Sequence record: OL656110.1
Strand: one strand, 5' to 3'
DNA length: 64,000 bases
Source: Escherichia phage vB_EcoM-RPN242
In this document: piece by piece, positions 4,181 to 63,398 of the stretch
How the letters are laid out: every line of letters begins with the position of its first letter
Numbering within the stretch: position 1 is the first letter of the stretch
The notes under the pieces: model-generated
Database searches by the model: none
Told to the model about the DNA's origin: nothing
Seen by the model: the letters and a program-made list of their open reading frames with translations, nothing else
Program-made: the position numbers and the translations under genes

Positions 4181-4212
4181 ATAAACAAAAGGAGCTGCTA
4201 TTATAGCAGCCC
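4181..4212 (-). terminator. putative rho-independent terminator
   Basis: Hairpin gctgct-attat-agcagc (4194..4210) followed on minus strand by tccttttgtttat. Confidence 0.5.
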
Positions 4213-4244
4213 CTTCATCTATTGAACAGTTTCTGAACTTAAAT

Positions 4245-5081
4245 CTACACAGCTTTCGCTTCAGCCAGAGCCTGTGGAAGCCATTCATTGATCGCCTTAA
4301 CCAGAGACTCAGCATCAGACTCTTTGATCTTCTGACGTTTGGTGAAGGACTTACCGTTCACGTACAGACTGAAGCCCCAGCCACCGGAAACGATAGGCGC
4401 AACGTCGACATACGTATTGGTGCGGGCGTGAAGGTTTTCAGGGTTAGCCAGTTCGGTGACCGGGAACTGGAACCAACGCATGTCTGGGTTCACGTAGCTC
4501 AGGAACACGCCGGGAACAACACCAGCTTCAATCGCCGCCAAGACCGGACCGTGATTAGAAGCGCGAGCCAAGTCAACCATTTCCTCACGTTTGGTGTGAC
4601 GGCGTTTACGCTCTACCAGCGCCGCCTGCGGGGTCAGGGTCTTACCCTTCGATGCTTCTTTCAACATAGAAGACGCCAAGGAACCGATTTTCGCGTCGGA
4701 CGGCTGATTGCCTTCTTCCAGCGCCGCGTTGACTGCATCTTCAACCGCGTCTACCGGGGCGTCGGACACTGGGGCTTCACATGCATCGGCAGAGATCGGT
4801 GCTTCAGCATCAATGGTTTCAGCGACTTTCAGCGATACTTCAGCTTGGGCTTGCTCTTGGGCTTGCGCCAGAGCCTGCTGAGTTTCTTCCTTCTCTTCGG
4901 CGCTCAGACCTTCAATCAGTTCGAAGCCGTTGGCAGCCTGAAGAACACCTTCAACCATACGGCGCAGGGTAACGTTTCCGATGATCAGACCTGCTTCTTT
5001 GATTTCAGCCTGAATAGCAGCAACGTCTTTGCCTTCAATTTCAATTTTGGTTCCAGAATCCACATGAAGAATATATGACAT
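4245..5081 (-). CDS. hypothetical protein with acidic Ala/Glu/Gln-rich low-complexity centre
   Basis: 278 aa complete ORF with ATG start; segment EEKEETQQALAQAQEQAQAEV. Confidence 0.6.
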   Translation of the reverse strand: MSYILHVDSGTKIEIEGKDVAAIQAEIKEAGLIIGNVTLRRMVEGVLQAANGFELIEGLSAEEKEETQQALAQAQEQAQAEVSLKVAETIDAEAPISADACEAPVSDAPVDAVEDAVNAALEEGNQPSDAKIGSLASSMLKEASKGKTLTPQAALVERKRRHTKREEMVDLARASNHGPVLAAIEAGVVPGVFLSYVNPDMRWFQFPVTELANPENLHARTNTYVDVAPIVSGGWGFSLYVNGKSFTKRQKIKESDAESLVKAINEWLPQALAEAKAV

Positions 5082-5151
5082 AATAAAAACCCTTTCGTTA
5101 TTAAGACCGTATCCGCGGCATATTGTTGTTCTGACTGTGTAGTGAGAACAT

Positions 5152-5179
5152 AATATACTGCATTTTCATAGATGTAAAC
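5152..5179 (-). promoter_or_regulatory. sigma70-like (T4 early-type) promoter candidate
   Basis: Minus strand reads GTTTAC - 16 nt - TATATT about 70 nt upstream of the ATG at 5081, inside a 176-bp AT-rich intergenic region. Confidence 0.4.
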
Positions 5180-7082: not shown

Positions 7083-7093
7083 TTGTCAACTCC

Positions 7094-7101
7094 TATAAAT
7101 A
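7094..7101 (+). promoter_or_regulatory. T4-type late promoter box TATAAATA
   Basis: Exact TATAAATA on plus strand about 35 nt upstream of the 7136 start; a gp55-like late sigma is encoded in the window. Confidence 0.55.
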
Positions 7102-7135
7102 ATAACAGTTATTTTATTTAAGTGGAGTCCTCATC

Positions 7136-9129: not shown

Positions 9130-9228
9130 TTCTTAATTTCCTATGTTTCCGCCCCTCAGGGCTATTCTGTTACATGTATTTTCAGTTTGCTACAAAGCGG
9201 GGTAATTATACCCCGATCTTACATTGAA

Positions 9229-10847: not shown

Positions 10848-10898
10848 GTAAATAGCCCATAACGAAGTTTCATTGGTGTATGGGCTATTTATGCCGGG

Positions 10899-15677: not shown

Positions 15678-16139
15678 CTACTCCGCCAGGGTGATCACAA
15701 CCATATTTAAGACTGTGTCGATAGCTCGGCCTGTTTCCTCTTCATGGAGGGTTTCGGCGCGGAGGTGCACGTCGGTGATGAAATTGTCGATGTGCATTGA
15801 AGTCAGATACGGGCGGTGTTGACTGACCGGGCGGTTGACCAGAACATAATTGCGCAATGTGTTGAAGTCCTGATGAGAGCACCCCGTTGTATCGATACGA
15901 AGGAAGCGTTCGTTGTGGCTTGTCTTCAGTTCAGTTACCTTGCCGAGGTAGACCAGAGGTCCATTGCGACCGATACGGAACATAACATCAACAACAGACT
16001 TGAAGATTTCGCGTTCAATTAGTGCGGTGGGTGACCAGCAGATCTCTTCTTTGTCATCGGCGTACAGGGTGTCGATCACCAGAGGGAGTTGAATGTAACC
16101 GAAGTTGTGCATTGGGTTGGTGAGTACTTTGTTTGTCAT
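15678..16139 (-). CDS. hypothetical protein (153 aa)
   Basis: ATG start with GGGAACTATATC leader; downstream of promoter cassette D. Confidence 0.55.
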   Translation of the reverse strand: MTNKVLTNPMHNFGYIQLPLVIDTLYADDKEEICWSPTALIEREIFKSVVDVMFRIGRNGPLVYLGKVTELKTSHNERFLRIDTTGCSHQDFNTLRNYVLVNRPVSQHRPYLTSMHIDNFITDVHLRAETLHEEETGRAIDTVLNMVVITLAE

Positions 16140-16244
16140 GATATAGTTCCCGCTTTCAATTTGTGGCGAATGCCAATGAATTACTGGGAAGTATAAGCGC
16201 AGGGATTATAGAAGTAAAGCCCCTCAATGAGGGGCTTTGGCTTG
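16140..16244 (-). promoter_or_regulatory. intergenic cassette D: hairpin terminator + TTTACT-N17-TATACT promoter + conserved leader
   Basis: Hairpin agcccctc-aat-gaggggct (16218..16236); minus-strand -35 TTTACT (16213..16218), 17-nt spacer, -10 TATACT (16190..16195); leader ends GGGAACTATATCATG; homologous to cassettes at 29252, 50853 and 63197. Confidence 0.5.
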
Positions 16245-17583: not shown

Positions 17584-17877
17584 TTATGCCTTGCCTTCGT
17601 GGAGTTTGATCTGTTCAGTGGTGATGTAATTCTTGATGTTAACAACAAAATCCTGGCGTTTGTCTGCAGGTAATTTGCTGAGGTCTAGAAGGATGTGAGT
17701 ACGGTTCACAGTATCCATTGGATCCGTGTAATTCAACGGGATAGCCGTGACTTCGCCGCCGTTGTGCCAAGCAGTGGCCACCTTCACGTTGCGGAGAACA
17801 TTCTCCGCTTCCATTTTGCTGTTGTGTTCGAGCAAGATACCTGGTTGGCCAGGGACTAACAATAACGTTTGGAACAT
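17584..17877 (-). CDS. hypothetical protein (97 aa) between nrdA and nrdB
   Basis: Complete ORF with ATG start. Confidence 0.5.
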   Translation of the reverse strand: MFQTLLLVPGQPGILLEHNSKMEAENVLRNVKVATAWHNGGEVTAIPLNYTDPMDTVNRTHILLDLSKLPADKRQDFVVNIKNYITTEQIKLHEGKA

Positions 17878-17946
17878 ATAGAACTCCTGATGAATAGGGG
17901 TGATCTCTCACCCCTGATGATATAACGGTAGTAGGTTTAGACCAAT

Positions 17947-20229: not shown

Positions 20230-20312
20230 GGTGTTCCTCGGGTTTGTTTACGCAGGTTTTATTATACGCCGCCATCGTAGATTGAAGGCGGCAGGGAGGG
20301 TTGGCGAGTTAC

Positions 20313-22052: not shown

Positions 22053-22121
22053 AAGAAAATACCTCCACAATGAATGCAGAGGTATTTAAAGTGAAAGTGA
22101 ACTACTTGAGGGAGTGGTGTA

Positions 22122-22457
22122 CTACATTTCTTTGAGCAGCGTTGCCATAAATTCCACCTTCTGGCGCAAACTGATATACGCTTCCGGAGCCGATTTGCCA
22201 CGCCCTTCTAATGAATCCCACCCGATGATTTTCGCCGACCAAAGTTTCTCATACTGATGGTAGGTCATCAAAAACGACTTACGACACATTTTGATGTCTG
22301 CGCCTTCTATGTTTCTGAGTATTTCCCAGTCCACCTGGCCCAAAGAAATTTTGAGTTCATACAGAGCCAATCTTGACAATTCCAAGTTATTCTTTGGAGT
22401 GCCTTCTGGTTTACCTGGCTCTGTTATGGCCAAAGCCTCTTGTTTTGTTAGTTTCAT
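22122..22457 (-). CDS. hypothetical protein (111 aa)
   Basis: Start at ATG 22457 (MKLTKQ...), ATGA overlap with upstream gene; longer track ORF is an out-of-frame extension. Confidence 0.5.
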   Translation of the reverse strand: MKLTKQEALAITEPGKPEGTPKNNLELSRLALYELKISLGQVDWEILRNIEGADIKMCRKSFLMTYHQYEKLWSAKIIGWDSLEGRGKSAPEAYISLRQKVEFMATLLKEM

Positions 22458-22642
22458 CTTGCTATCACCACTGGCATAACTTCGCTGAAGGACGTACGAA
22501 CTTCGGCGTCGTACCCGTATTTTTCCAGGACTGCCAACATCGCCTGCTCGAGTTCCTCTTGGAACTGAGGGAAGACTTTGTTCGGAATGCGGTCGGCAAC
22601 CCAGAGAGCGCCTGCTGAGGCTTGGATGACTGCGCGGGGCAT
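22454..22642 (-). CDS. hypothetical protein (62 aa)
   Basis: ATG start with strong AGGAGA RBS. Confidence 0.5.
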   Translation of the reverse strand: MPRAVIQASAGALWVADRIPNKVFPQFQEELEQAMLAVLEKYGYDAEVRTSFSEVMPVVIAR

Positions 22643-22705: not shown

Positions 22706-23194
22706 TTAGGCCAGTTTGCTCACCAGAGCTTCAACTGCGTCGGCGCTCAGTTTACCCATTTTGACGTACTGAGCTTTTGCTTCACCACCAGCCGCTTTCA
22801 CGATGTCGGTGTTGTCGTACCCCTTCTTAGGGAATACCATCACAGAGAAGGAACCGTTGTTCAGCGGGTTCAGCTGGATGCGACCTTTACCGACTACGAT
22901 GGTGCCGTAAGTTTCGGTGTTTGCTTCGACAATGTGGATGTCGTGACCCAGGTTTTTCAGCATACCAACTTTGTCGGCAGTCTTAGCAACCACAGCTTTG
23001 TCAACCACAACCTGCTCTACCAGGGTGAAGCCGTTAGTCGATTTCACTTTACCGTTCAGCAGGTTCATGAAGGAAGTTTTGCCACCAGTGAAGCCAGCCG
23101 CCTGAGCGATGCGGAACATTTCAACTTTAGCAACTTCGGTGTTCAGTTCGAAAGAGATGGTGCCGTTGGTGATCAGAGTTTTGGTAGTAGCCAT
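22706..23194 (-). CDS. hypothetical protein (162 aa), probably highly expressed
   Basis: Start at ATG 23194 with GAGGAATTACATC leader; flanked by a terminator downstream and an AT-rich structured upstream region. Confidence 0.6.
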   Translation of the reverse strand: MATTKTLITNGTISFELNTEVAKVEMFRIAQAAGFTGGKTSFMNLLNGKVKSTNGFTLVEQVVVDKAVVAKTADKVGMLKNLGHDIHIVEANTETYGTIVVGKGRIQLNPLNNGSFSVMVFPKKGYDNTDIVKAAGGEAKAQYVKMGKLSADAVEALVSKLA

Positions 23195-23340
23195 GATGTA
23201 ATTCCTCATAATGTAGTTGGTTCATTTCACTTTTCATTCGGCGGTGTGTTGCCGCCCTATGTGAACTATAATAGTGCATCATTATTGAAGAGTAAAGTCT
23301 TTTTCAATAATTTTTTAAAATATTTTTGAAGTATTTTAAA

Positions 23341-23361
23341 AGGCCTCATTCGACGAGGCCT
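23341..23361 (-). terminator. hairpin terminator candidate
   Basis: aggcctc-gtcgaat-gaggcct palindrome followed on minus strand by TTTTAAAATAC. Confidence 0.45.
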
Positions 23362-26064: not shown

Positions 26065-26087
26065 CTTAATCTCCTCGGGATTTCAGT

Positions 26088-26095
26088 TATTTATA
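26088..26095 (-). promoter_or_regulatory. T4-type late promoter box TATAAATA (minus strand)
   Basis: Plus strand reads tatttata at 26088..26095; abuts hairpin agcccc-cgaa-ggggct (26096..26111), which may terminate the upstream 906-aa gene. Confidence 0.55.
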
Positions 26096-26119
26096 AGCCC
26101 CCGAAGGGGCTTTCGATGA

Positions 26120-28915: not shown

Positions 28916-29251
28916 TTATTTTTGAACTTGGGCTACAGACATCGCCCAGAGCGGGAGGGTGTGGGGGTCCAGGGCTTCCAGTAGATATTCGACGCGCTCT
29001 GACATGATACCTTCAGGGAAGTTTACTTCTTCTGGTTCGTTGTTGGCCGTCCAACCCAAGGTCAGTCCTTCAGCGTGATGGATGATATAAACGAAGTCGC
29101 CCGATTCGTAGTCCTTTTCCATCAGGGAGAAGAAATCTTCCATTTCTTCGTCGGAGAAGTAGTAGATGCGAGGTACGGAGCCGTCAGCAAAGTGCTCAGC
29201 ACCCTGGAAGGCAAACATGTCATCGGCGGTGAAGTTCTTGAGTTGTGTCAT
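28916..29251 (-). CDS. hypothetical acidic protein (111 aa)
   Basis: First ATG at 29251 (MTQLKNF...) with AGGAACTATATC leader; track start is TTG. Confidence 0.5.
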   Translation of the reverse strand: MTQLKNFTADDMFAFQGAEHFADGSVPRIYYFSDEEMEDFFSLMEKDYESGDFVYIIHHAEGLTLGWTANNEPEEVNFPEGIMSERVEYLLEALDPHTLPLWAMSVAQVQK

Positions 29252-29357
29252 GATATAGTTCCTGCTATTCAAGTTGGTGTCGTACTGCTTATGGAATGAA
29301 GTATAGGGAAGGATATTGAAGAAGTAAAGGGGCGAAAGCCCCTTTTATTGAATTATT
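29252..29357 (-). promoter_or_regulatory. intergenic cassette A: hairpin terminator + TTTACT-N17-TATACT promoter + conserved leader
   Basis: Hairpin ggggc-gaaa-gcccc (29329..29342); minus-strand -35 TTTACT (29323..29328), 17-nt spacer, -10 TATACT (29300..29305); 20-nt block 29286..29305 identical to 63331..63350. Confidence 0.5.
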
Positions 29358-38811: not shown

Positions 38812-38850
38812 ACGAAAAAGCCGGAGCATTGTACTCCGGCTTTCTCTTTT
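38812..38850. terminator. bidirectional rho-independent terminator
   Basis: agccggag-cattgta-ctccggct hairpin (38819..38841) with T-run on plus strand and A-run on the other side. Confidence 0.65.
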
Positions 38851-39171: not shown

Positions 39172-39264
39172 CTGGATTTCTCCGTTGGGTTAATGTTTAC
39201 TTTCATGTTCACTACAAGAGGACTACATCTTACCTAACAAAACATATTGAATAAAGCGAAATTA

Positions 39265-40452: not shown

Positions 40453-40508
40453 GATATAGTCACTCAAATGAAAGGGCAGCTTTATGATAAGCCGCCCGAG
40501 GTTATTGA

Positions 40509-41741: not shown

Positions 41742-42427
41742 CACTCGTTCTCCTTCATCATATTGTCGCAGTCAACACGAGTCTGCTGAAGTTCGCGCGA
41801 CATGCGAGGATCATCAAGGTTCACGCTCAGATTCGTGGCCAGGTCTTTCAGACCGTTCTGAACCCTGTCTTCAAAGTAATAATCGTTCTCAACCAGCCAG
41901 GCTCTGAGACCAAGAGCGCGGGTGCGCCATTCCTTCTTCAGGACGCGATCAGAGGTCTGCGTAGCGCTGTATTCGAATACTTTGATGCACTGGTTGCCAT
42001 CGTTGATAAGGTTCAGGTGGCGGCGACCAACCTGCACACCCTTCTGTAATGCCGGAGAAGGGAGCGAACGGCACTGTCTTACGGTCATTCGGCCTTGGGT
42101 GCCCATTCGGCCAGTCATGATCAAATCGCCAGCCTCCATGCCTCCACGGTTAAATTCGTCGTCATTGAGGTAGCCTTTGAGGTTATAGGCTCCCTGTTTG
42201 TAACGGTTGAACTCAATTCCGGCATTGACGACAGCAGTGGAGACGTTGCCTGTGTTCCAGAGTTCAGCGAAGTTCTCTATGGAACCAGACTTGTCGATGG
42301 CAACCGCCTGGGAGAACCCAGCACAATAGGAAAGGTCGGACCACAGTTTATCACCTGTGGAGTTCAGCTTGGCAGCGGCGGGTAATGCCAGACCAGCCAG
42401 CACAACCCCGAGGATTAAACGTTTCAT
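41741..42427 (-). CDS. secreted/periplasmic hypothetical protein
   Basis: Start at ATG 42427 (MKRLILGVVLAGLALPAAA...), a signal-peptide-like N-terminus. Confidence 0.5.
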   Translation of the reverse strand: MKRLILGVVLAGLALPAAAKLNSTGDKLWSDLSYCAGFSQAVAIDKSGSIENFAELWNTGNVSTAVVNAGIEFNRYKQGAYNLKGYLNDDEFNRGGMEAGDLIMTGRMGTQGRMTVRQCRSLPSPALQKGVQVGRRHLNLINDGNQCIKVFEYSATQTSDRVLKKEWRTRALGLRAWLVENDYYFEDRVQNGLKDLATNLSVNLDDPRMSRELQQTRVDCDNMMKENE

Positions 42428-42506
42428 GGCGATTCTCCTTATTTCATTGGATGAAATGATAGGCGGCTCACCATGATGAGTAAAGGGTTTCAATAAACTA
42501 TCGTAT

Positions 42507-43436: not shown

Positions 43437-43807
43437 AACGTACCCCCGACAGAGATCAAGAACTCTTCTTGCATGGTCTTGACCGGGTGGTGGTTGCGGG
43501 TTTCGAACATGAAGCCCCAGCCACCGTCGGCGACGTTGCCAAAGGTCTTGACGCCAAAGGACTTCGTCCCGTTAGAGCAGGAATAGATGTCCAGGACGTA
43601 TGGGCTACCCTGATTGTCGATCCCACGATTCACGTCGTCTGATACGCAGCGCTCAATCATCTTCCCGTTCTTATACAGAACGAGGTCTTGGCCATACGCC
43701 TTGAAAGCATAAACACCGTTGGTAGACACTCCGGTGATGACAGGAGGGGCGGAAACAGCAGCAAAGGAAGCGCCCAGCAGAGCAACAGCGAGGATTAACT
43801 TTTTCAT
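43433..43807 (-). CDS. secreted hypothetical protein
   Basis: Start at ATG 43807 (MKKLILAVALLGASFAAVSA...) with AGAGACTATATC leader. Confidence 0.55.
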   Translation of the reverse strand: MKKLILAVALLGASFAAVSAPPVITGVSTNGVYAFKAYGQDLVLYKNGKMIERCVSDDVNRGIDNQGSPYVLDIYSCSNGTKSFGVKTFGNVADGGWGFMFETRNHHPVKTMQEEFLISVGGTL

Positions 43808-43866
43808 GATATAGTCTCTTGGTTTCAAATGGGCGGGGTAATCATACCCCGCCCAAAGTTATAGAA

Positions 43867-44106
43867 TTAACTGATGTGCTTCAGAAGAGCGAAGAGGATC
43901 GCGGCCTTGGCCTTTACCTTTCCCACGATGCCTGTCTCGACATCAACTTCTTCAGCAACCCACTCTTTGCCTTTCTTGCTGATGATCACGTCACGGCGCT
44001 GTGCGTAGACTTCTTTGGTCGCATACACACGACGGAACCCTTTAGCGCGGAGCAATCCCCAATTACGATCAATTTCTACTGAGGTTTCTACCATTTTGTT
44101 CTTCAT
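43867..44106 (-). CDS. hypothetical protein (79 aa)
   Basis: Complete ORF with ATG start. Confidence 0.45.
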   Translation of the reverse strand: MKNKMVETSVEIDRNWGLLRAKGFRRVYATKEVYAQRRDVIISKKGKEWVAEEVDVETGIVGKVKAKAAILFALLKHIS

Positions 44107-44189
44107 GATATAATCTTACCTTTCAACCCGGTGAACCCATCGTTCGCCAGTTATTGAATAATAGGACATTCCTTAGAGGAAGTAAACCC

Positions 44190-44223
44190 CTAAAAGTAAA
44201 AATCCCCAACGTTTGTTGGGGAC
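44190..44223 (-). terminator. rho-independent terminator
   Basis: tccccaac-gttt-gttgggga hairpin (44203..44222) followed on minus strand by TTTTTACTTTTA. Confidence 0.7.
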
Positions 44224-47004: not shown

Positions 47005-47086
47005 TTGATCTCACTTAACAGAGACGACACCCTGTTGGGATTTAATAGCGGTCTTCACGCGCCAGGGGTGATAGAATCACCGTAGA

Positions 47087-47320
47087 TCAGGCCGATGTGC
47101 TCATCCAACAGGAAGTGCCCAGTTTCAAAGATCTCCCACAGGCGCTGGATAGAGCCAACCGCTTCTGAACGTCTGATGATTTGATGTGAGCATCAATCAC
47201 CACGTTCTGAACATGGCCGATAGGGATACCAGATTTTTGAATCTTGATATGTTCCTCACCACCTGGGAAGGTGAAGTGTTTGTAGAACACATCTTGGTCG
47301 TTCAATTTCAAACGAAACAT
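47087..47320 (-). CDS. hypothetical protein; reading frame appears to continue in another frame
   Basis: 77-aa ORF with ATG start; after about residue 47 a protein-like continuation (RSEAVGSIQRLWEIFETGHFLLDEHIGLIYGDSITPGA) exists in a different frame ending near 47055. Confidence 0.4.
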   Translation of the reverse strand: MFRLKLNDQDVFYKHFTFPGGEEHIKIQKSGIPIGHVQNVVIDAHIKSSDVQKRLALSSACGRSLKLGTSCWMSTSA

Positions 47321-47428
47321 AATGTAACCTCATGGTGTATTGTACAGCCGTATTATACTGTGATGTACAAATTGAAACGCCCAGCATTTACGCTGGACGT
47401 TATTGATATTGAAAAGGTTTTGACAAAC

Positions 47429-48833: not shown

Positions 48834-50852
48834 TTAGAACACAACTTTCACAGTGCGGTTGAACGAACCGCTCACCTTCACGAACACGTGGTTGCGTTGG
48901 GTGGTAGAGAAGCCCAGACCGGACAGCTGCTCAGTGCTTGGCTGTACTTTAATCTTACCACCTAACATTTCAAAAACCTTGCGGTGTTTATCAAGTTCCG
49001 GCTTCAGATATTCGTTATAGAAACCACGGGTGCCGACAGGGTTAGCACAACCTTCCAGGATGAAGAACACGTGCTTGTTGCCAGTCTGCTCGCCGTCCCA
49101 ATGGTTTGGTGAGTTCAGAACCAGCTGTACCTTCTGGAAGACGGAGGTCTTGATGCCCCAGATTTCCTGAGAGCGAGCGTCGTCTTTCAGGGTAGAACTG
49201 ATGTCAACCACCTGACCAGCGCGAACCTGAACCACAACAGCCAACGTGCGATCTTTGTTGCCCAGGCCAGGGTGTGAGAAGCGCTTAGTCTGGCCTTTGT
49301 ATTCAACTTCGATTTCGAAACCAACGTCACAGGTTTCACGCTTGTTGAAGTTGGTGACATAGAACTCATAATTCCCGTCACGCAACTTGCGTTCATCGCT
49401 AAAGAAGATGTTCTCCACCGGACGGCGGTTTGGATCAATGCCGTCCATACCGTTCATGTCGATGTCCAGAGTTGCGCCAGTTGTCGAACGACGGTTGCGA
49501 AAATATACGTGGTTGTGAAGAGGATCGTTCATGCTCAGATCCAGGTCGTCGTTGTTATGCCAAGCCAGTGACACGCGGAGGAAGCTGTCGACATTGCCGC
49601 CTGCGGTCTTCACGCGCTCTTTGATGGAGTCGGCCACTTCGCCATTGTACGACCAGCTGAAGCCGTTGTTCCACTTGAACAGGTTAGGAGCGCCTGCGGT
49701 AGCCGGAGCGATCAGGGACATCAGGTTGCCAATGTGAGAGTTTTCGACCAGCACTTCTAGGGAATGCGCCTTTGGCAACACGTTGGTCAGGAAGTCGTCG
49801 ATCGTGATCTCTTCAACCTTGTCCAGGGACTTTGTCGGAGTCTTCACTTCAGACGCCAGCTGAGCAAACGGGTCCATCTTCTTCTGAGCTGCCAGATCGG
49901 CGAACAGAACGTTGTTGATGGTCAGATCGTCATACACGGCATAACGGCGACCCAGTGAATCAGTCAGACCCAGCGCTTCGACTTCTTTCTGCGCGTTTTC
50001 AATCATCGACTTCGTGACCAGCGCGGTTGGGCGCTTGTAGTTCGTCGGAGCGACTTTGGCTTCAAAGGACTTCACGGCGGTTTCCAGATCCCGGCCTTCA
50101 TTGAGGTCTACCAGCAGAGAGCCAATCACGGTATTACGAATGCCGTGAGGGGTATGACCGTTTGCACGGTAGCCAGTGCGCCAAGCCCACAGAGCGCGTT
50201 TCTCTTCTGCAGTTTGTTCGTACAGGGTCTTGTTCACCACGAACGCCTGCACTGCCGCTTTGTGCTCTTCACCGCGATACAGAGAATTCTGGTCGATCAA
50301 TTCCAGAACGATTTCAGCCGATTCCAGAGACAGTTCACGCAGGCCGCGCTCAAACACTTCAATCGCCTGGCGGATTTCACCCTTCTTAGAAGCGATGGTA
50401 TCTGCCCGCAGAACATAGCTGCTCAGCAGGTCGGTGTGGAAGTGGTTGTAGGTGCGGACAATACCGTCTTTCATTTCGTGATTCGACCCAACACCAACTT
50501 TCTTGGTGTCGTTGAAGTACACGTCGACGATTGCGTGCTGCTTAACATATGCTGACAGCGCCGCAGCGACAACGTCGTATTCGTTACCCAACTGAATGTT
50601 ATCCCAGATAGAGATCACGTTCAGGTCGGAGTCGATGGTGACCACACCGCCGATGTTACGGATGAATTGTTTACAGCAGGTGCAGTCGTGCTCGGTACGC
50701 TCACGATAAAGCGGGTTAGTGCCAGCAGGGAAAGAAGACAGATACAGATCCCACAGAGCATCTTTATCGATGTTGGTCATGAACAGACCAGTTGCTGACA
50801 TGGCCCGCACGTTATTGTTGACAGCTACTGCGAAGGACTTAAAATCTGACAT
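48834..50852 (-). CDS. large hypothetical protein (672 aa) with N-terminal Cys cluster
   Basis: ATG start with AGGAAGATTACATC leader; HDCTCCKQF near N-terminus; no Walker or polymerase motifs recognised. Confidence 0.7.
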   Translation of the reverse strand: MSDFKSFAVAVNNNVRAMSATGLFMTNIDKDALWDLYLSSFPAGTNPLYRERTEHDCTCCKQFIRNIGGVVTIDSDLNVISIWDNIQLGNEYDVVAAALSAYVKQHAIVDVYFNDTKKVGVGSNHEMKDGIVRTYNHFHTDLLSSYVLRADTIASKKGEIRQAIEVFERGLRELSLESAEIVLELIDQNSLYRGEEHKAAVQAFVVNKTLYEQTAEEKRALWAWRTGYRANGHTPHGIRNTVIGSLLVDLNEGRDLETAVKSFEAKVAPTNYKRPTALVTKSMIENAQKEVEALGLTDSLGRRYAVYDDLTINNVLFADLAAQKKMDPFAQLASEVKTPTKSLDKVEEITIDDFLTNVLPKAHSLEVLVENSHIGNLMSLIAPATAGAPNLFKWNNGFSWSYNGEVADSIKERVKTAGGNVDSFLRVSLAWHNNDDLDLSMNDPLHNHVYFRNRRSTTGATLDIDMNGMDGIDPNRRPVENIFFSDERKLRDGNYEFYVTNFNKRETCDVGFEIEVEYKGQTKRFSHPGLGNKDRTLAVVVQVRAGQVVDISSTLKDDARSQEIWGIKTSVFQKVQLVLNSPNHWDGEQTGNKHVFFILEGCANPVGTRGFYNEYLKPELDKHRKVFEMLGGKIKVQPSTEQLSGLGFSTTQRNHVFVKVSGSFNRTVKVVF

Positions 50853-50966
50853 GATGTAATCTTCCTGTTTCAGTTCAAATGTGCGCCCCGTTTGCCAGGG
50901 CGCTTCGTTTAAGTGAGGTCAGTATACGCTGGATTGAGTTATTGAAGAACGAAGTAAAGGGAATCT
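50853..50966 (-). promoter_or_regulatory. intergenic cassette C (degenerate copy): TTTACTTCGTTCTTCAATA ... TATACT plus leader hairpin
   Basis: Minus strand carries CCCTTTACTTCGTTCTTCAATAACTCAATCCAGCGTATACT (TATACT = 50921..50926) and leader hairpin gcgccc-cgtttgcca-gggcgc (50883..50903); -35/-10 spacing is non-canonical. Confidence 0.35.
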
Positions 50967-53149: not shown

Positions 53150-53217
53150 GGTATCCTCTTAGAATACGAAAACAGAGGCCATTATAGCCTCTGTTGTTTA
53201 GTGAATAACTGTATATC

Positions 53218-54106: not shown

Positions 54107-54571
54107 TTATTCGCTTTTTGCCTTTGTAGGCCGGATGATGTATTTTGGAACCAGCTTCCATTCAGGAACCTGATCGTGTTTAACCACTTTAATGCGAGAC
54201 ATATCGGCTGCTTCGGTGACCTGCTCAGGATGAATGACCTTCACCATGTTCCACTGCTCCAGCAGCTTGATGATTCGGTTCATCCTCAGGACATCTTCGC
54301 GGTTAAATCCGTTGTAATGCCCGTCCAGCATAAATAGATGCTTAAAGTGGACGATATAATACTTACCACACTTATGAAGAATATGGCAAGTCTGATACAG
54401 AGTATTCGGCTCTTGGCGCGTGTTTACCCCAATTCGACTCAGTGTTTCCTTGATCCCCAGAAATATACCTGGCCGATCTTGGTTCAATTGAACTTCAACC
54501 ATACAATCAACGATGCTGGCCTCATCGTTGACTGCTGAAATATTCAATATGTCTAGCGTATTACGCGCCAT
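54107..54571 (-). CDS. regA: translational repressor RegA
   Basis: 154 aa; LYQTCHILHKCGKYYIVHFKHLFMLDG and PEWKLVPKY match T4 RegA. Confidence 0.8.
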   Translation of the reverse strand: MARNTLDILNISAVNDEASIVDCMVEVQLNQDRPGIFLGIKETLSRIGVNTRQEPNTLYQTCHILHKCGKYYIVHFKHLFMLDGHYNGFNREDVLRMNRIIKLLEQWNMVKVIHPEQVTEAADMSRIKVVKHDQVPEWKLVPKYIIRPTKAKSE

Positions 54572-56767: not shown

Positions 56768-56900
56768 TTGTATGTATCCTCAAAATATAGTGGGGGTTCA
56801 AGTCATGTTTGACGCAATCTAGTATCGCTGTGTTTTGTTTATAGAACAAGTGGCAAATTGCGCTACGCGTTATTAATAAATGCCTTCGGCATTTATGGAC

Positions 56901-56947
56901 TTTATTAAAGATAATAACCTTTATTAAAGATAATAATCTTTATTAAT
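56901..56947. repeat. tandem palindromic iterons (TTTATTAAAGATAATAA x2 plus partial third copy)
   Basis: Copies at 56901..56917 and 56920..56936 are identical, 19-bp period; each unit is TTATTA-aaga-TAATAA; lies in a 361-bp AT-rich region between divergent genes. Confidence 0.7.
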
Positions 56948-56979
56948 CCTATTCGCTTCGCTCATAAAACAAATACTCG

Positions 56980-57009
56980 TTGTTCGCTAACGCTCACAAC
57001 TCGTATAAT
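56980..57009 (+). promoter_or_regulatory. sigma70-like promoter candidate for plus-strand gene
   Basis: TTGTTC - 18 nt - TATAAT (57004..57009), about 120 nt upstream of ATG at 57129. Confidence 0.35.
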
Positions 57010-57128
57010 ACCACGCCATTGTTCAACAAGAAAGCAGTTTTTATTCAACAGCAAAATTAATTTATTTGGTCTAAACATGCACGCGAAATAATATGTATGT
57101 CATGTTAACCAACACACGAGAGTAATAT

Positions 57129-62875: not shown

Positions 62876-63196
62876 TCACAGCGCCCCAAGATTGCCGATT
62901 ACGTACAGGGAGCACAGAGGAGTACCTGACGAACGAGGTTCGATCGTCATCCCGCTCAGGCGGATCAGTTCCAGTAAGCCGTCAGTGGTCTGATACGCGC
63001 GTGTCGAACCGTTCGGTCGATATAGCTCCAGCTCAGTTCGCCCTTCCTTTATTGCATTTCGAATGCGAGTGAACACACTGTGGTCGCCGAACTTCTGTTT
63101 CAGAAGATCCAGCTTGGTGGTCAGGCGGCGACGTGGTTTGCGCGCACGAGGGTTCTCTTTTACGACCGCTTCTAAAATCGGGATGCTGTTAGCCAT
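62876..63196 (-). CDS. hypothetical protein (106 aa)
   Basis: Complete ORF with ATG start and AGAGGA RBS. Confidence 0.5.
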   Translation of the reverse strand: MANSIPILEAVVKENPRARKPRRRLTTKLDLLKQKFGDHSVFTRIRNAIKEGRTELELYRPNGSTRAYQTTDGLLELIRLSGMTIEPRSSGTPLCSLYVIGNLGAL

Positions 63197-63398
63197 GATA
63201 AAGTCCTCTATTTGTAGGGGATAGGGTATGCGGTTAACATACCCTGTTCAAAGGTTTAGAACAAATTGCTGCAATGTTACTTTGTAACGAGAGTGGTGAT
63301 AGTTCCTTCATTTCAGAGTCAGTGTTGTGCTGCTTATGGAATGAAGTATACGGGGTTTATTGAAGAATTAAACCCCGTATATTGAATAAATTTAAAAT
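63197..63398 (-). promoter_or_regulatory. intergenic cassette B: TTTAAT-N16-TATACT promoter + conserved leader
   Basis: Minus-strand -10 TATACT (63345..63350) and -35 TTTAAT (63367..63372); 20-nt block 63331..63350 identical to 29286..29305; leader contains ATGAAGGAACTATCACC and a hairpin before the 63196 start. Confidence 0.45.

What the first reader, a model, noticed from the sequence alone, without database searches (positions are those of the whole stretch)
29252..29357. Recurring intergenic cassette: terminator hairpin, TTTACT-N17-TATACT promoter and conserved leader
At least four minus-strand intergenic regions share one architecture: a GC hairpin, then CTTTACTTC(T)TCAATA, then TATACT 16-17 nt downstream, then a leader ending in an SD-like GGA plus ACTATATC and ATG. 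Copies are at 16140..16244, 29252..29357, 63197..63398 and a degenerate one at 50853..50966. The TTTAC(T) -35 with a TATA-type -10 resembles T4 early promoters, which are stronger than ordinary host promoters. The cassettes would define transcription units inside the long minus-strand gene array.
Basis: seen in the sequence. Interest (0 to 1): 0.6.

Follow-up and report, generated by a model that had tools for sequence, protein, structure and literature searches.

The report
Phage early-promoter and terminator cassettes
The repeated intergenic block is a small regulatory cassette (terminator hairpin, host-type promoter, standard ribosome-binding leader) of an Ackermannviridae phage; it resembles the "PeSL" cassettes of T4-like phages and gives this family the early-promoter consensus it has lacked.

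Summary
The window comes from an Agtrevirus-like Ackermannviridae phage (97-98% identical to phages A221 and AV101). The motif is real. TTTAC(T/A)-N16-17-TAT(A/T)(C/A)T occurs 7 times in the window, always intergenic, always on the gene strand, 29-150 nt before a start codon. A relaxed pattern gives 6 hits against 1.1 in shuffles.

In gene-anchored orthologues from other genera the -35 and -10 hexamers and the 17-nt spacer length hold while spacer sequence and hairpin loops drift. The copy-1 stem shows a compensatory change.

Copies 1 and 2 fit the description exactly. Copy 3 has a mutated -35 (TTTAAT), a hairpin that encloses the -35, and a decayed first gene. Copy 4 is a different promoter class, TTCAATAA-N12-TATACT.

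The same cassette precedes unrelated ORFan genes in different genomes, and some indels are bracketed by cassette repeats. This matches the PeSL cassettes of T4-type phages, whose T4/PST promoter consensus is TTTACW-N17-TAYWAT.

No transcript data exist, so promoter, terminator and recombination functions are inferred.

By-product: TTCAATAA is the most enriched intergenic 8-mer (22 against 0.9 expected). It sits 12±1 bp from a -10, which is MotA-box geometry, in a family reported to lack MotA and AsiA.

The parts
29326..29345 (-). Copy 1 terminator-like hairpin AAAGGGGC-TTTC-GCCCCTTT. Its U-rich tail runs into the -35. A TTCAATAA box lies just upstream at 29345-29352.
   Evidence: RNA fold -13.5 kcal/mol, z -4.2. 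In orthologues the loop varies freely (25% identity) and the stem shows a compensatory change, GGGGC/GCCCC to GGGAC/GTCCC.
29300..29328 (-). Copy 1 promoter: -35 TTTACT (29323-29328), 17-nt spacer containing TTCAATA (29314-29320), -10 TATACT (29300-29305).
   Evidence: Across five genomes of several genera the -35 is 100% and the -10 93% identical, against 75% for the adjacent coding sequence.
29249..29299 (-). Copy 1 leader (TCATTCCATAAGCAGTACGACACC...) and TIR CTTGAATAGCAGGAACTATATC-ATG. The start codon is at 29249-29251 and the gene is 28916-29251 (111 aa, unknown function).
   Evidence: Leader 93% conserved and unstructured, z +0.9. No Rfam family. Gene has no Pfam family and only an unknown-function PHROG.
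16137..16238 (-). Copy 2: hairpin 16216-16238, -35 TTTACT 16213-16218, -10 TATACT 16190-16195, TIR ATTGAAAGCGGGAACTATATC-ATG 16137-16160, gene 15678-16139.
   Evidence: Hairpin -16.6 kcal/mol. In orthologues the 17-nt spacer sequence is replaced (CTATAATCCCTGCGCT vs TTGAAACGCCCTCCCC) while its length and both hexamers are kept. One genome (L063) lacks terminator and promoter but keeps the TIR.
63194..63378 (-). Copy 3: hairpin 63350-63378 enclosing the -35 TTTAAT (63367-63372), -10 TATACT 63345-63350, vestigial TIR 63295-63318 (remnant of a lost ORF), second hairpin 63223-63245, real TIR and ATG 63194-63209, gene 62876-63196.
   Evidence: 78% identical to the AV101 type-B cassette (copy 3 type) over 115 nt and 86% to copy 1 over 37 nt. 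In other genomes this cassette is followed by at least 5 unrelated ORFs, or none.
50850..50959 (-). Copy 4, a different class: non-conserved CTTTACTTC 50951-50959, TTCAATAA box 50939-50946, 12-nt spacer, -10 TATACT 50921-50926, leader hairpin 50883-50903, TIR 50850-50879, gene 48834-50852 (672 aa).
   Evidence: In 14 orthologues TTCAATAA and the -10 core are invariant, the spacer is 11-13 nt with diverged sequence, and CTTTACTTC is absent in many. Leader hairpin -17.6 kcal/mol; the 74-nt leader containing it folds at z -3.2.
23268..23361 (-). Additional class I copy: terminator 23338-23361, A/T-rich upstream region with an inverted TTATTGAA, -35 TTTACT 23291-23296, spacer with TTCAATAA, -10 TATTAT 23268-23273, gene 22706-23209.
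   Evidence: Across 19 orthologues only the 8 spacer bases outside TTCAATAA vary.
44158..44223 (-). Additional class I copy: terminator 44198-44223, -35 (G)TTTACT 44181-44186, -10 TATTAT 44158-44163, gene 43867-44106.
   Evidence: (-18.5 kcal/mol). The LIMEstone1 GenBank record annotates the orthologue as 'putative early promoter' GTTTAC/TATTAT.
42456..42484 (-). Additional class I copy, TTTACT-N17-TATCAT, with no hairpin and an inverted TTATTGAA just upstream. The gene starts at 42427.
   Evidence: (AV101 orthologue).
5150..5178 (-). Additional class I copy, (G)TTTACA-N17-TATTAT, with TTCAATAA 8 nt upstream of the -35. Gene 4245-5081.
43805..43866 (-). Class II cassette TTCTATAA-N12-TATGAT with the -10 in the loop of hairpin GGGCGGGG/CCCCGCCC, followed by the same TIR (ATTTGAAACCAAGAGACTATATC-ATG). 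It is a hybrid of the two cassettes that flank a 510-bp gene in AV101.

Best explanation
The block is a composite regulatory cassette of an Ackermannviridae phage. It has up to four parts.

1. A GC-rich intrinsic-terminator hairpin ends the upstream transcription unit. This part is present in most copies, not all.
2. A promoter read by host sigma70 RNA polymerase without phage factors follows at once, sharing the hairpin's U-rich tail. Its -35 is TTTAC(T/A), the variant typical of T4-type early promoters. The spacer is 16-17 bp and the -10 is TATACT or TATTAT.
3. A 30-70 nt unstructured leader follows.
4. The cassette ends in a stereotyped translation-initiation region (TIR), TTGAA-N4-6-(A/G)GGAACTATATC-ATG.

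Each cassette starts a short unit headed by a small gene of unknown function, inside the long minus-strand replication and nucleotide-metabolism array. Because about 10 similar cassettes lie in one genome, they probably also serve as homology patches. Recombination at these patches inserts, deletes or swaps genes without disturbing neighbouring expression, as shown for PeSL cassettes of T4-type phages.

Shown here: sequence anatomy, statistics, conservation pattern, hairpin stability, and gene-content variation at cassette borders. Inferred: actual initiation, termination, timing and recombination.
For: - Statistics, window: 6 of 6 relaxed hits are intergenic and on the gene strand, against 1.1 in shuffles.
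- Statistics, AV101 genome: 8 of 9 hits to the stricter pattern and 10 of 18 hits to TTTAC-N17-19-TAnnnT fall in the 8% of the genome that is intergenic.
- Gene-anchored orthologues: hexamers and spacer length are conserved while spacer sequence and hairpin loops diverge, and the hairpin stem shows a compensatory change.
- Hairpins fold at -13.5 to -18.5 kcal/mol, z -4 to -6.7.
- The exact composite word occurs 2-4 times per genome; 45 of 50 IMG/VR hits carry the cassette flanks, most on contigs of about 152-162 kb.
- The same cassette precedes unrelated ORFs in different genomes. Chimeric A/B leaders exist.
- A 91-aa ORF is inserted between two TIR repeats. A gene flanked by two cassettes in AV101 is replaced in the window by one hybrid cassette.
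- The downstream genes have no Pfam family or known function.
- The published PeSL definition and the T4/PST consensus TTTACW-N17-TAYWAT match (PMC4122927; PMC2839356).
Against: - There are no transcript 5'/3' ends, reporter assays or in vitro transcription for any Ackermannviridae phage in the searchable literature.
- A generic sigma70 scan scores these sites only 9 of 12 and finds no excess of such sites over shuffles.
- None has an extended -10 TGn.
- The simple terminator scan did not call the copy 1 and 2 hairpins on the minus strand, because their U tails are interrupted (UUUACUUC).
- The hairpin is missing or differently placed in 3 of 7 copies.
- About 40% of thymidines in ViI-like virion DNA are hypermodified (PMC5889632), so recognition of T-rich hexamers on injected DNA is uncertain.
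- Only 4 of 9 window/AV101 indels abut a cassette, and only one is a clean cassette-to-cassette event.
Confidence: 0.7

Rival explanations
1. The cassettes are factor-dependent ('middle-type') promoters. On this view the recognised element is the TTCAATA(A) box, bound by an unknown phage protein. TTTACT would be incidental, or merely part of the terminator's U tract.
For: - TTCAATAA is the most over-represented intergenic 8-mer in AV101, 22 against 0.87 expected.
- It lies in or beside 8 of 9 class I promoters.
- It is invariant in the spacer of the 23268-23296 copy while the other spacer bases vary.
- The LIMEstone1 record labels the copy 1 and 23-kb orthologues 'putative middle promoter'.
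- This reading is correct for copy 4.
Against: - In copies 1 and 3 and the 23-kb copy the box lies 6-8 nt from the -10, not the 12±1 nt seen at the fixed-geometry sites.
- Copy 2 and the 44-kb and 42-kb copies have no TTCAATA word in the spacer; only copy 2 in this window carries the variant TTCTATAA, which its orthologues replace. They keep TTTACT-N17 exactly.
- TTTACT is 100% conserved at N16-17 from the -10.
Confidence: 0.15
2. The conservation reflects an RNA-level function of the leader and TIR, for example an operator for the phage RegA-like translational repressor or an RNase site. The -35/-10-like words would then be by-products.
For: - The leader (93%) and the TIR are highly conserved.
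- The full TIR TTGAA-N-GGAACTATATCATG occurs at only about 8 of 198 genes.
- The phage encodes RegA (window 54107-54571).
Against: - The leaders are unstructured and match no Rfam family.
- The TIR is also found after class II promoters, and directly after another gene with no promoter (L063), so it is a separable module.
- This reading does not explain the fixed 17-nt spacing of two hexamers across diverging spacers.
- It is compatible with the promoter reading rather than an alternative to it.
Confidence: 0.1
3. The repeats are only recombination linkers, or remnants of duplications, with no transcriptional role.
For: Paralogous copies reach 78-86% identity. Gene swaps and indels occur at their borders.
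Against: - Divergent paralogues (copy 2, and the 44-kb, 42-kb and 5-kb copies) share little beyond the two hexamers at fixed spacing.
- All copies point toward a start codon 29-150 nt away.
- Orthologues from different genera preserve the hexamers but not the spacers.
Confidence: 0.05

Closest known systems
PeSL (promoter-early stem-loop) cassettes of T4-type phages RB49/phi1, T4/PST and KVP40/nt-1 (Arbiol et al. 2010, PMC2839356; Comeau et al. 2014, PMC4122927)
   Same: - Composite of a GGGG...CCCC stem-loop terminator just upstream of a sigma70-like promoter with a 17-bp spacer, ending in SD and start codon.
- The T4/PST promoter consensus TTTACW-N17-TAYWAT has the same -35 and spacing.
- Multiple dispersed copies per genome.
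- Located next to ORFan genes and at insertions, deletions and gene replacements between relatives.
- Crossovers lie between the -10 and the ATG.
   Different: - The host genome belongs to Ackermannviridae, not Straboviridae.
- The -10 is often TATACT.
- No TGn, and the AT-rich upstream region is present in only some copies.
- The cassettes carry an extra word (TTCAATAA).
- They lie inside the replication-gene array rather than in separate hyperplastic regions.
- Promoter and terminator activity and mini-circles are untested here.
T4 early promoters (Hinton 2010 review, PMC2988021)
   Same: Host-sigma70-type -35/-10 promoters with a TTTAC-type -35 and additional conserved positions around the start site, placed in front of small early genes.
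   Different: T4 early promoters are 'UP/-35/TGn/-10' promoters, whereas none of these has TGn. The Alt ADP-ribosyltransferase that boosts T4 early promoters is reported absent from ViI-like phages (PMC3184105).
T4 middle (MotA/AsiA, sigma-appropriation) promoters and the PmSL cassettes of phage nt-1
   Same: Applies to copy 4 and the other TTCAATAA-N12-(-10) sites. A conserved box centred near -30 replaces a -35 element at 12±1 bp from a good -10, and some sites are combined with stem-loops.
   Different: The box sequence is TTCAATAA, not (a/t)(a/t)(a/t)TGCTTtA. No MotA or AsiA homologue has been reported in this family (PMC3184105). In several sites the -10 sits in the loop of the terminator hairpin itself.
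Regulatory annotation of Dickeya phage LIMEstone1 (HE600015; Adriaenssens et al. 2012, PMC3296691)
   Same: That record already marks terminators and putative early or middle promoters at the orthologues of copy 1, 23268-23296 and 44158-44186.
   Different: Those features were pattern matches to T4 consensus sequences. For copy 1 they mark other bases (CTT / TACGAC). The recurring cassette family, its consensus and its link to gene shuffling were not described.

Membership tests
PeSL cassette | sigma70-like promoter with -35 and -10 hexamers about 17 bp apart | tested here: met
   TTTAC(T/A)-N16-17-TAT(A/T)(C/A)T at 7 sites. Spacing is conserved in orthologues while spacer sequence changes.
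PeSL cassette | GC-rich stem-loop (terminator) immediately upstream of the promoter | tested here: inconclusive
   Present and stable at copies 1 and 2 and at the 44-kb and 23-kb copies, with a compensatory change. It overlaps the -35 in copy 3 and is absent at the 42-kb and 5-kb copies. Terminator activity was not measured.
PeSL cassette | 3' end formed by the Shine-Dalgarno sequence and start codon of the downstream gene | tested here: met
   GGAACTATATC-ATG and variants.
PeSL cassette | Several similar copies dispersed in one genome | tested here: met
   7 in the window and 9-10 in AV101. Paralogue identity is 78-86% for copies 1 and 3.
PeSL cassette | Association with ORFans and with indels or gene replacements between close relatives | tested here: met
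   Searches show the gene-content changes. The downstream genes have no known family. However, only 4 of 9 window/AV101 indels touch a cassette.
PeSL cassette | Measured promoter and terminator activity; mini-circle formation by recombination between cassettes | not testable with these tools
   Requires reporter fusions and inverse PCR as in PMC2839356.
T4-type early promoter | -35 of the TTTAC(W) type with a 17-bp spacer and a TAYWAT -10 | tested here: met
   The -35 and spacing match. The -10 matches in the 3 TATTAT sites. TATACT differs at position 5 and TATCAT at position 4 (consensus from PMC4122927).
T4-type early promoter | Extended -10 (TGn) and UP element | tested here: not met
   The three bases before the -10 are CCC, GCT, CCG, CAC, TCC, GCC and GTA, so none is TGn. 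An A/T-rich UP-like region is present only at the 23-kb copy and at the paralogue whose AV101 copy is at 5139.
T4-type early promoter | Active immediately after infection with unmodified host polymerase | not testable with these tools
   No transcript data exist for this family.
T4 middle (MotA-dependent) promoter | MotA box (a/t)(a/t)(a/t)TGCTTtA centred at -30 | tested here: not met
   The box is TTCAATAA.
T4 middle (MotA-dependent) promoter | Box located 12±1 bp upstream of a good -10, with no -35 element | tested here: met
   Met for copy 4 and about 10 other sites in AV101. Not met for copies 1-3, where the box lies 6-7 nt from the -10.
T4 middle (MotA-dependent) promoter | Phage encodes MotA and AsiA | not tested
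   Kutter et al. 2011 report no homologues in ViI-like phages. Ten genes downstream of the cassettes have no Pfam family.
Intrinsic (rho-independent) terminator | Stable GC-rich hairpin followed by a U tract | tested here: inconclusive
   The hairpins are stable. The tails UUUACUUCUUC and UUUACUUCUAU are U-rich but interrupted. The consensus scan called the copy 1 hairpin only on the opposite strand.

The most novel reading that the evidence does not exclude
TTCAATAA may be the recognition site of a still-unidentified phage-encoded, or phage-recruited, transcription factor. At about 10 sites per genome it sits at -32 to -25, exactly 12±1 bp from a -10 and with no -35 element. That is the geometry of T4 sigma appropriation, in a family reported to lack MotA and AsiA.

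The same box also lies inside the spacer, just upstream of, or at the start site of 8 of 9 early-type promoters. One factor could therefore switch early promoters off and middle promoters on.

In several middle-type sites the -10 is the loop of a terminator hairpin. Read-through transcripts would terminate there, while transcripts started inside the hairpin would escape it.
Probability: 0.3. Interest if true: 0.7.

Novelty: new member of a known kind. Interest (0 to 1): 0.42.

Why it matters
How ViI-like (Ackermannviridae) phages run their early and middle transcription is an open question. These phages are widely used for biocontrol, diagnostics and tailspike engineering.

- The CBA120 paper found only eight sigma70-like sites. 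It stated that early promoters could not be identified by informatics and that Alt, ModA, MotA and AsiA are absent.
- A 2024 review of the family does not mention promoters or transcription at all.

This work supplies two concrete, testable consensus sequences: an early type, TTTACT-N17-TATACT, and a -30-box type, TTCAATAA-N12-TATAAT. It also gives their coordinates. That makes the question directly testable by 5'-end RNA-seq and in vitro transcription.

The cassettes also mark natural, transcriptionally insulated insertion slots for engineering. They extend the PeSL model of modular gene shuffling beyond the T4 family.

Tried and rejected
- **Generic sigma70 and terminator consensus scans.** They list the sites at 9 of 12 matches, but the total number of such sites does not exceed shuffles. 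The generic model is therefore uninformative, and only the phage-specific consensus discriminates.
- **Rfam search of the whole window.** No family was found.
- **A structured leader or riboswitch-like element.** The leaders of copies 1-3 fold no better than shuffles, so this was rejected. Only copy 4 has a leader hairpin.
- **'SD plus ACTATATC is simply the phage's general TIR'.** Partly rejected. ATC-ATG is the commonest pre-start triplet (16% of genes), but the full TTGAA-N-GGAACTATATCATG word is confined to about 8 of 198 genes.
- **Copy 4 as a degenerate class I copy.** Rejected from orthologues.
- **The LIMEstone1 'middle promoter' annotation at the copy 1 orthologue.** The marked bases (CTT / TACGAC) are not the conserved hexamers.
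- **Function of the downstream genes by Pfam and PHROGs.** Nothing known.
- **'All indels are cassette-mediated'.** Rejected. Five of nine window/AV101 differences are internal gene deletions or unrelated insertions.
- **Distant homologues of the 672-aa gene outside Ackermannviridae.** They carry no such upstream motifs.
- **Literature searches for Ackermannviridae transcriptomics or PeSL in this family.** Nothing was found.

Full report
**Source of the window.** A 3-kb piece around the finding is 97-98% identical to Escherichia phages A221, fGh-Ecl02 and AV101. It is 87-93% identical to Salmonella and Shigella relatives. AV101 is classified in Ackermannviridae, subfamily Aglimvirinae. The minus-strand array holds replication and nucleotide-metabolism genes: uvsX, dUTPase, thymidylate synthase, gp32, gp33, nrdAB, phoH, primase, gp46, gp55, RNase H, helicases, regA and the clamp and clamp loader.

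**Observation check.** All four stretches are intergenic and carry the stated words.
- Copies 1 and 2 fit exactly: hairpin, TTTACT, 17-nt spacer, TATACT, GGAACTATATC-ATG.
- Copy 3 has TTTAAT as its -35 and a 16-nt spacer. Its hairpin encloses the -35. Its GGAACTAT box is the remnant of a 330-bp gene that AV101 still has.
- Copy 4 has 26 nt between TTTACT and TATACT and no upstream hairpin.
- Four copies were missed: 5150-5178, 23268-23296, 42456-42484 and 44158-44186.

**Statistics in the window.** The exact pattern gives 2 hits against 0.02 expected. A relaxed pattern gives 6 hits against 1.1 in shuffles. All 6 lie in the 6.5% of the window that is intergenic (p = 7e-8), and all are on the gene strand. 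An unbiased repeat search recovers the copy 1/copy 3 repeat and the repeated translation-initiation region, TIR.

**Whole genome and family.** I assembled the AV101 genome with its annotation.
- 8 of 9 hits to the stricter pattern are fully intergenic. So are 10 of 18 hits to TTTAC-N17-19-TAnnnT, although intergenic DNA is only 8% of the genome.
- Nine of these intergenic sites point toward a start codon 29-74 nt away.
- The exact word TTTACTTCTTCAATA-N6-8-TATACT occurs at 50 places in IMG/VR. Forty-five carry the cassette flanks, most on contigs of about 152-162 kb, with 2-4 copies per genome. They fall into four paralogous loci.

**Evidence for promoter function (comparative only).** I retrieved orthologues through the downstream protein, so the promoter did not bias the selection.
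- Copy 1: the -35 is 100% identical, the -10 93% and the leader 93%. The adjacent coding sequence is 75% and the hairpin loop 25%.
- Copy 2: the 17-nt spacer is essentially replaced (CTATAATCCCTGCGCT against TTGAAACGCCCTCCCC) while both hexamers and the spacer length are kept.

Fixed boxes at fixed distance across a drifting spacer are the classical footprint of a promoter. TTTACA is also the -35 of the lac promoter (my own knowledge). The published consensus for T4/PST PeSL promoters is TTTACW-N17-TAYWAT.

**Hairpins.** They fold at -13.5 to -18.5 kcal/mol, z -4 to -6.7. The copy 1 stem shows a compensatory G:C to A:T change in one genome, and the loop is free to vary. The U-rich tail of the copy 1 and 2 hairpins is the -35 region itself. 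The tails are interrupted (UUUACUUC), and the simple scan did not call these hairpins on the minus strand. Terminator efficiency is therefore unproven.

**Leader and TIR.** The leaders of copies 1-3 are unstructured, z +0.05 to +0.9, and no Rfam family matches anywhere in the window. 'ATC-ATG' is common in this phage (16% of genes). The full word TTGAA-N4-6-GGAACTATATCATG is restricted to about 8 of 198 genes. These lie behind both promoter classes.

**Recombination joints.**
- Cassette B (copy 3 type) is followed by at least five unrelated ORF families, or by none. The distance to the next conserved hairpin ranges from 96 to 728 nt.
- Cassette A (copy 1 type) precedes four different genes.
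- Some genomes carry a B promoter joined to an A leader.
- In one contig a 91-aa ORF sits between two TIR repeats.
- One genome lacks the copy 2 terminator and promoter but keeps the TIR.
- In AV101 a 510-bp gene is flanked by two class II cassettes. The window has one hybrid cassette, with the crossover in the shared hairpin core.

Against this, only 4 of 9 window/AV101 indels touch a cassette. The rest are internal deletions or unrelated insertions. All ten genes examined downstream of cassettes have no Pfam family and only unknown-function PHROGs.

**Copy 4 and the TTCAATAA box.** In 14 orthologues, including a 51%-identical relative on a 164-kb contig, TTCAATAA and the -10 core are invariant. 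The spacer is 11-13 nt with diverged sequence, and CTTTACTTC is often absent.
- TTCAATAA is the most over-represented intergenic 8-mer in AV101: 22 against 0.87 expected.
- About 10 boxes lie 10-14 nt (mode 12) upstream of a good -10, co-oriented with a gene and with no -35-like hexamer.
- Another 11-12 lie in, before or just after class I promoters, at variable position and orientation.
- At several sites the -10 hexamer is the loop of a GC hairpin followed by Ts.
- The 12±1 bp geometry equals that of T4 MotA boxes, yet MotA and AsiA are reported absent from this family.

**Literature.**
- Only eight sigma70-like promoters were proposed for AG3 and for CBA120. [quoted passage not shown]
- LIMEstone1 was annotated with 5 early and 5 middle promoters by similarity to T4. 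Its record marks the orthologues of three of these cassettes, partly on other bases.
- A 2024 family review never mentions promoters or transcription.
- No paper links PeSL to this family, and no transcriptome study was found.
- About 40% of thymidines in ViI-like virion DNA are hypermodified. This is a caveat for T-rich promoter elements.

**Verdict.** The finding is real and its interpretation is largely right. It is best filed as a PeSL-type early-promoter and terminator cassette in a new phage family: a new member of a known kind. All functional steps are still inferred. Copy 4 belongs to a second, possibly factor-dependent promoter class built on TTCAATAA. That class is the more novel lead.

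Noticed in passing
window minus strand: 4200-4226, 9205-9210 region, 20261-20286, 39227-39251, 43841-43866, 47352-47376, 50921-50946, 53181-53186 region; AV101 sites listed: A second promoter-like class, TTC(A/T)ATAA-N12(±1)-TAT(A/T)AT, has no -35 element. TTCAATAA is the most enriched intergenic 8-mer of the AV101 genome (22 against 0.87 expected). The geometry equals that of T4 MotA-box promoters, but the box sequence differs.
   Followed up: partly
window minus strand: 4200-4205, 9205-9210, 38828-38833, 43841-43846, 53181-53186 (also 40483-40488): Terminator-like GC hairpins whose loop is a -10-like hexamer (TATAAT, TATGAT, TACAAT), with stems of 5-10 bp followed by Ts. This would be a promoter embedded in a terminator: transcripts starting in the 3' arm would escape the hairpin.
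   Followed up: partly
window 7083-7135, 10848-10898, 26065-26119; AV101 intergenic regions before structural genes: A (C/T)TAAATA(C) word recurs before late or structural genes (12 against 2.6 expected in AV101 intergenic DNA). It may be the late-promoter motif that the CBA120 paper said had not been identified for this family.
   Followed up: partly
window 47050-47180: Compared with AV101, the window lacks about 2.4 kb carrying the nicotinamide phosphoribosyltransferase and ribose-phosphate pyrophosphokinase genes. Only fused remnants remain.
   Followed up: partly
window 63246-63318: Remnant of a roughly 330-bp gene that follows cassette B in AV101 (116348-116677). It coincides with a C-to-A change in the -35 of this cassette (TTTAAT), which is not seen in any of the type-B copies retrieved from other genomes (a set selected on an exact TTTACT pattern).
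   Followed up: partly
window 56768-57128, especially 56900-56946: A 360-nt non-coding region lies between the sliding-clamp gene and a divergent ORF. It holds a 19-bp tandem repeat (2.5 copies, CTTTATTAAAGATAATAAC) next to a hairpin. Its function is unknown; it could be regulatory or an origin.
   Followed up: no
window 17585-17885 and 22110-22563: Two window-specific segments are absent from AV101: a small ORF between nrdA and nrdB, and the intact form of a gene that is internally deleted in AV101.
   Followed up: partly
window 50883-50903 and orthologues (alignment A2): A stable hairpin sits in the 5' leader of the 672-aa gene. It is kept across genera, with a variable loop and a few stem changes (GCGCCC/GGGCGC variants). 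Its role is unknown.
   Followed up: partly
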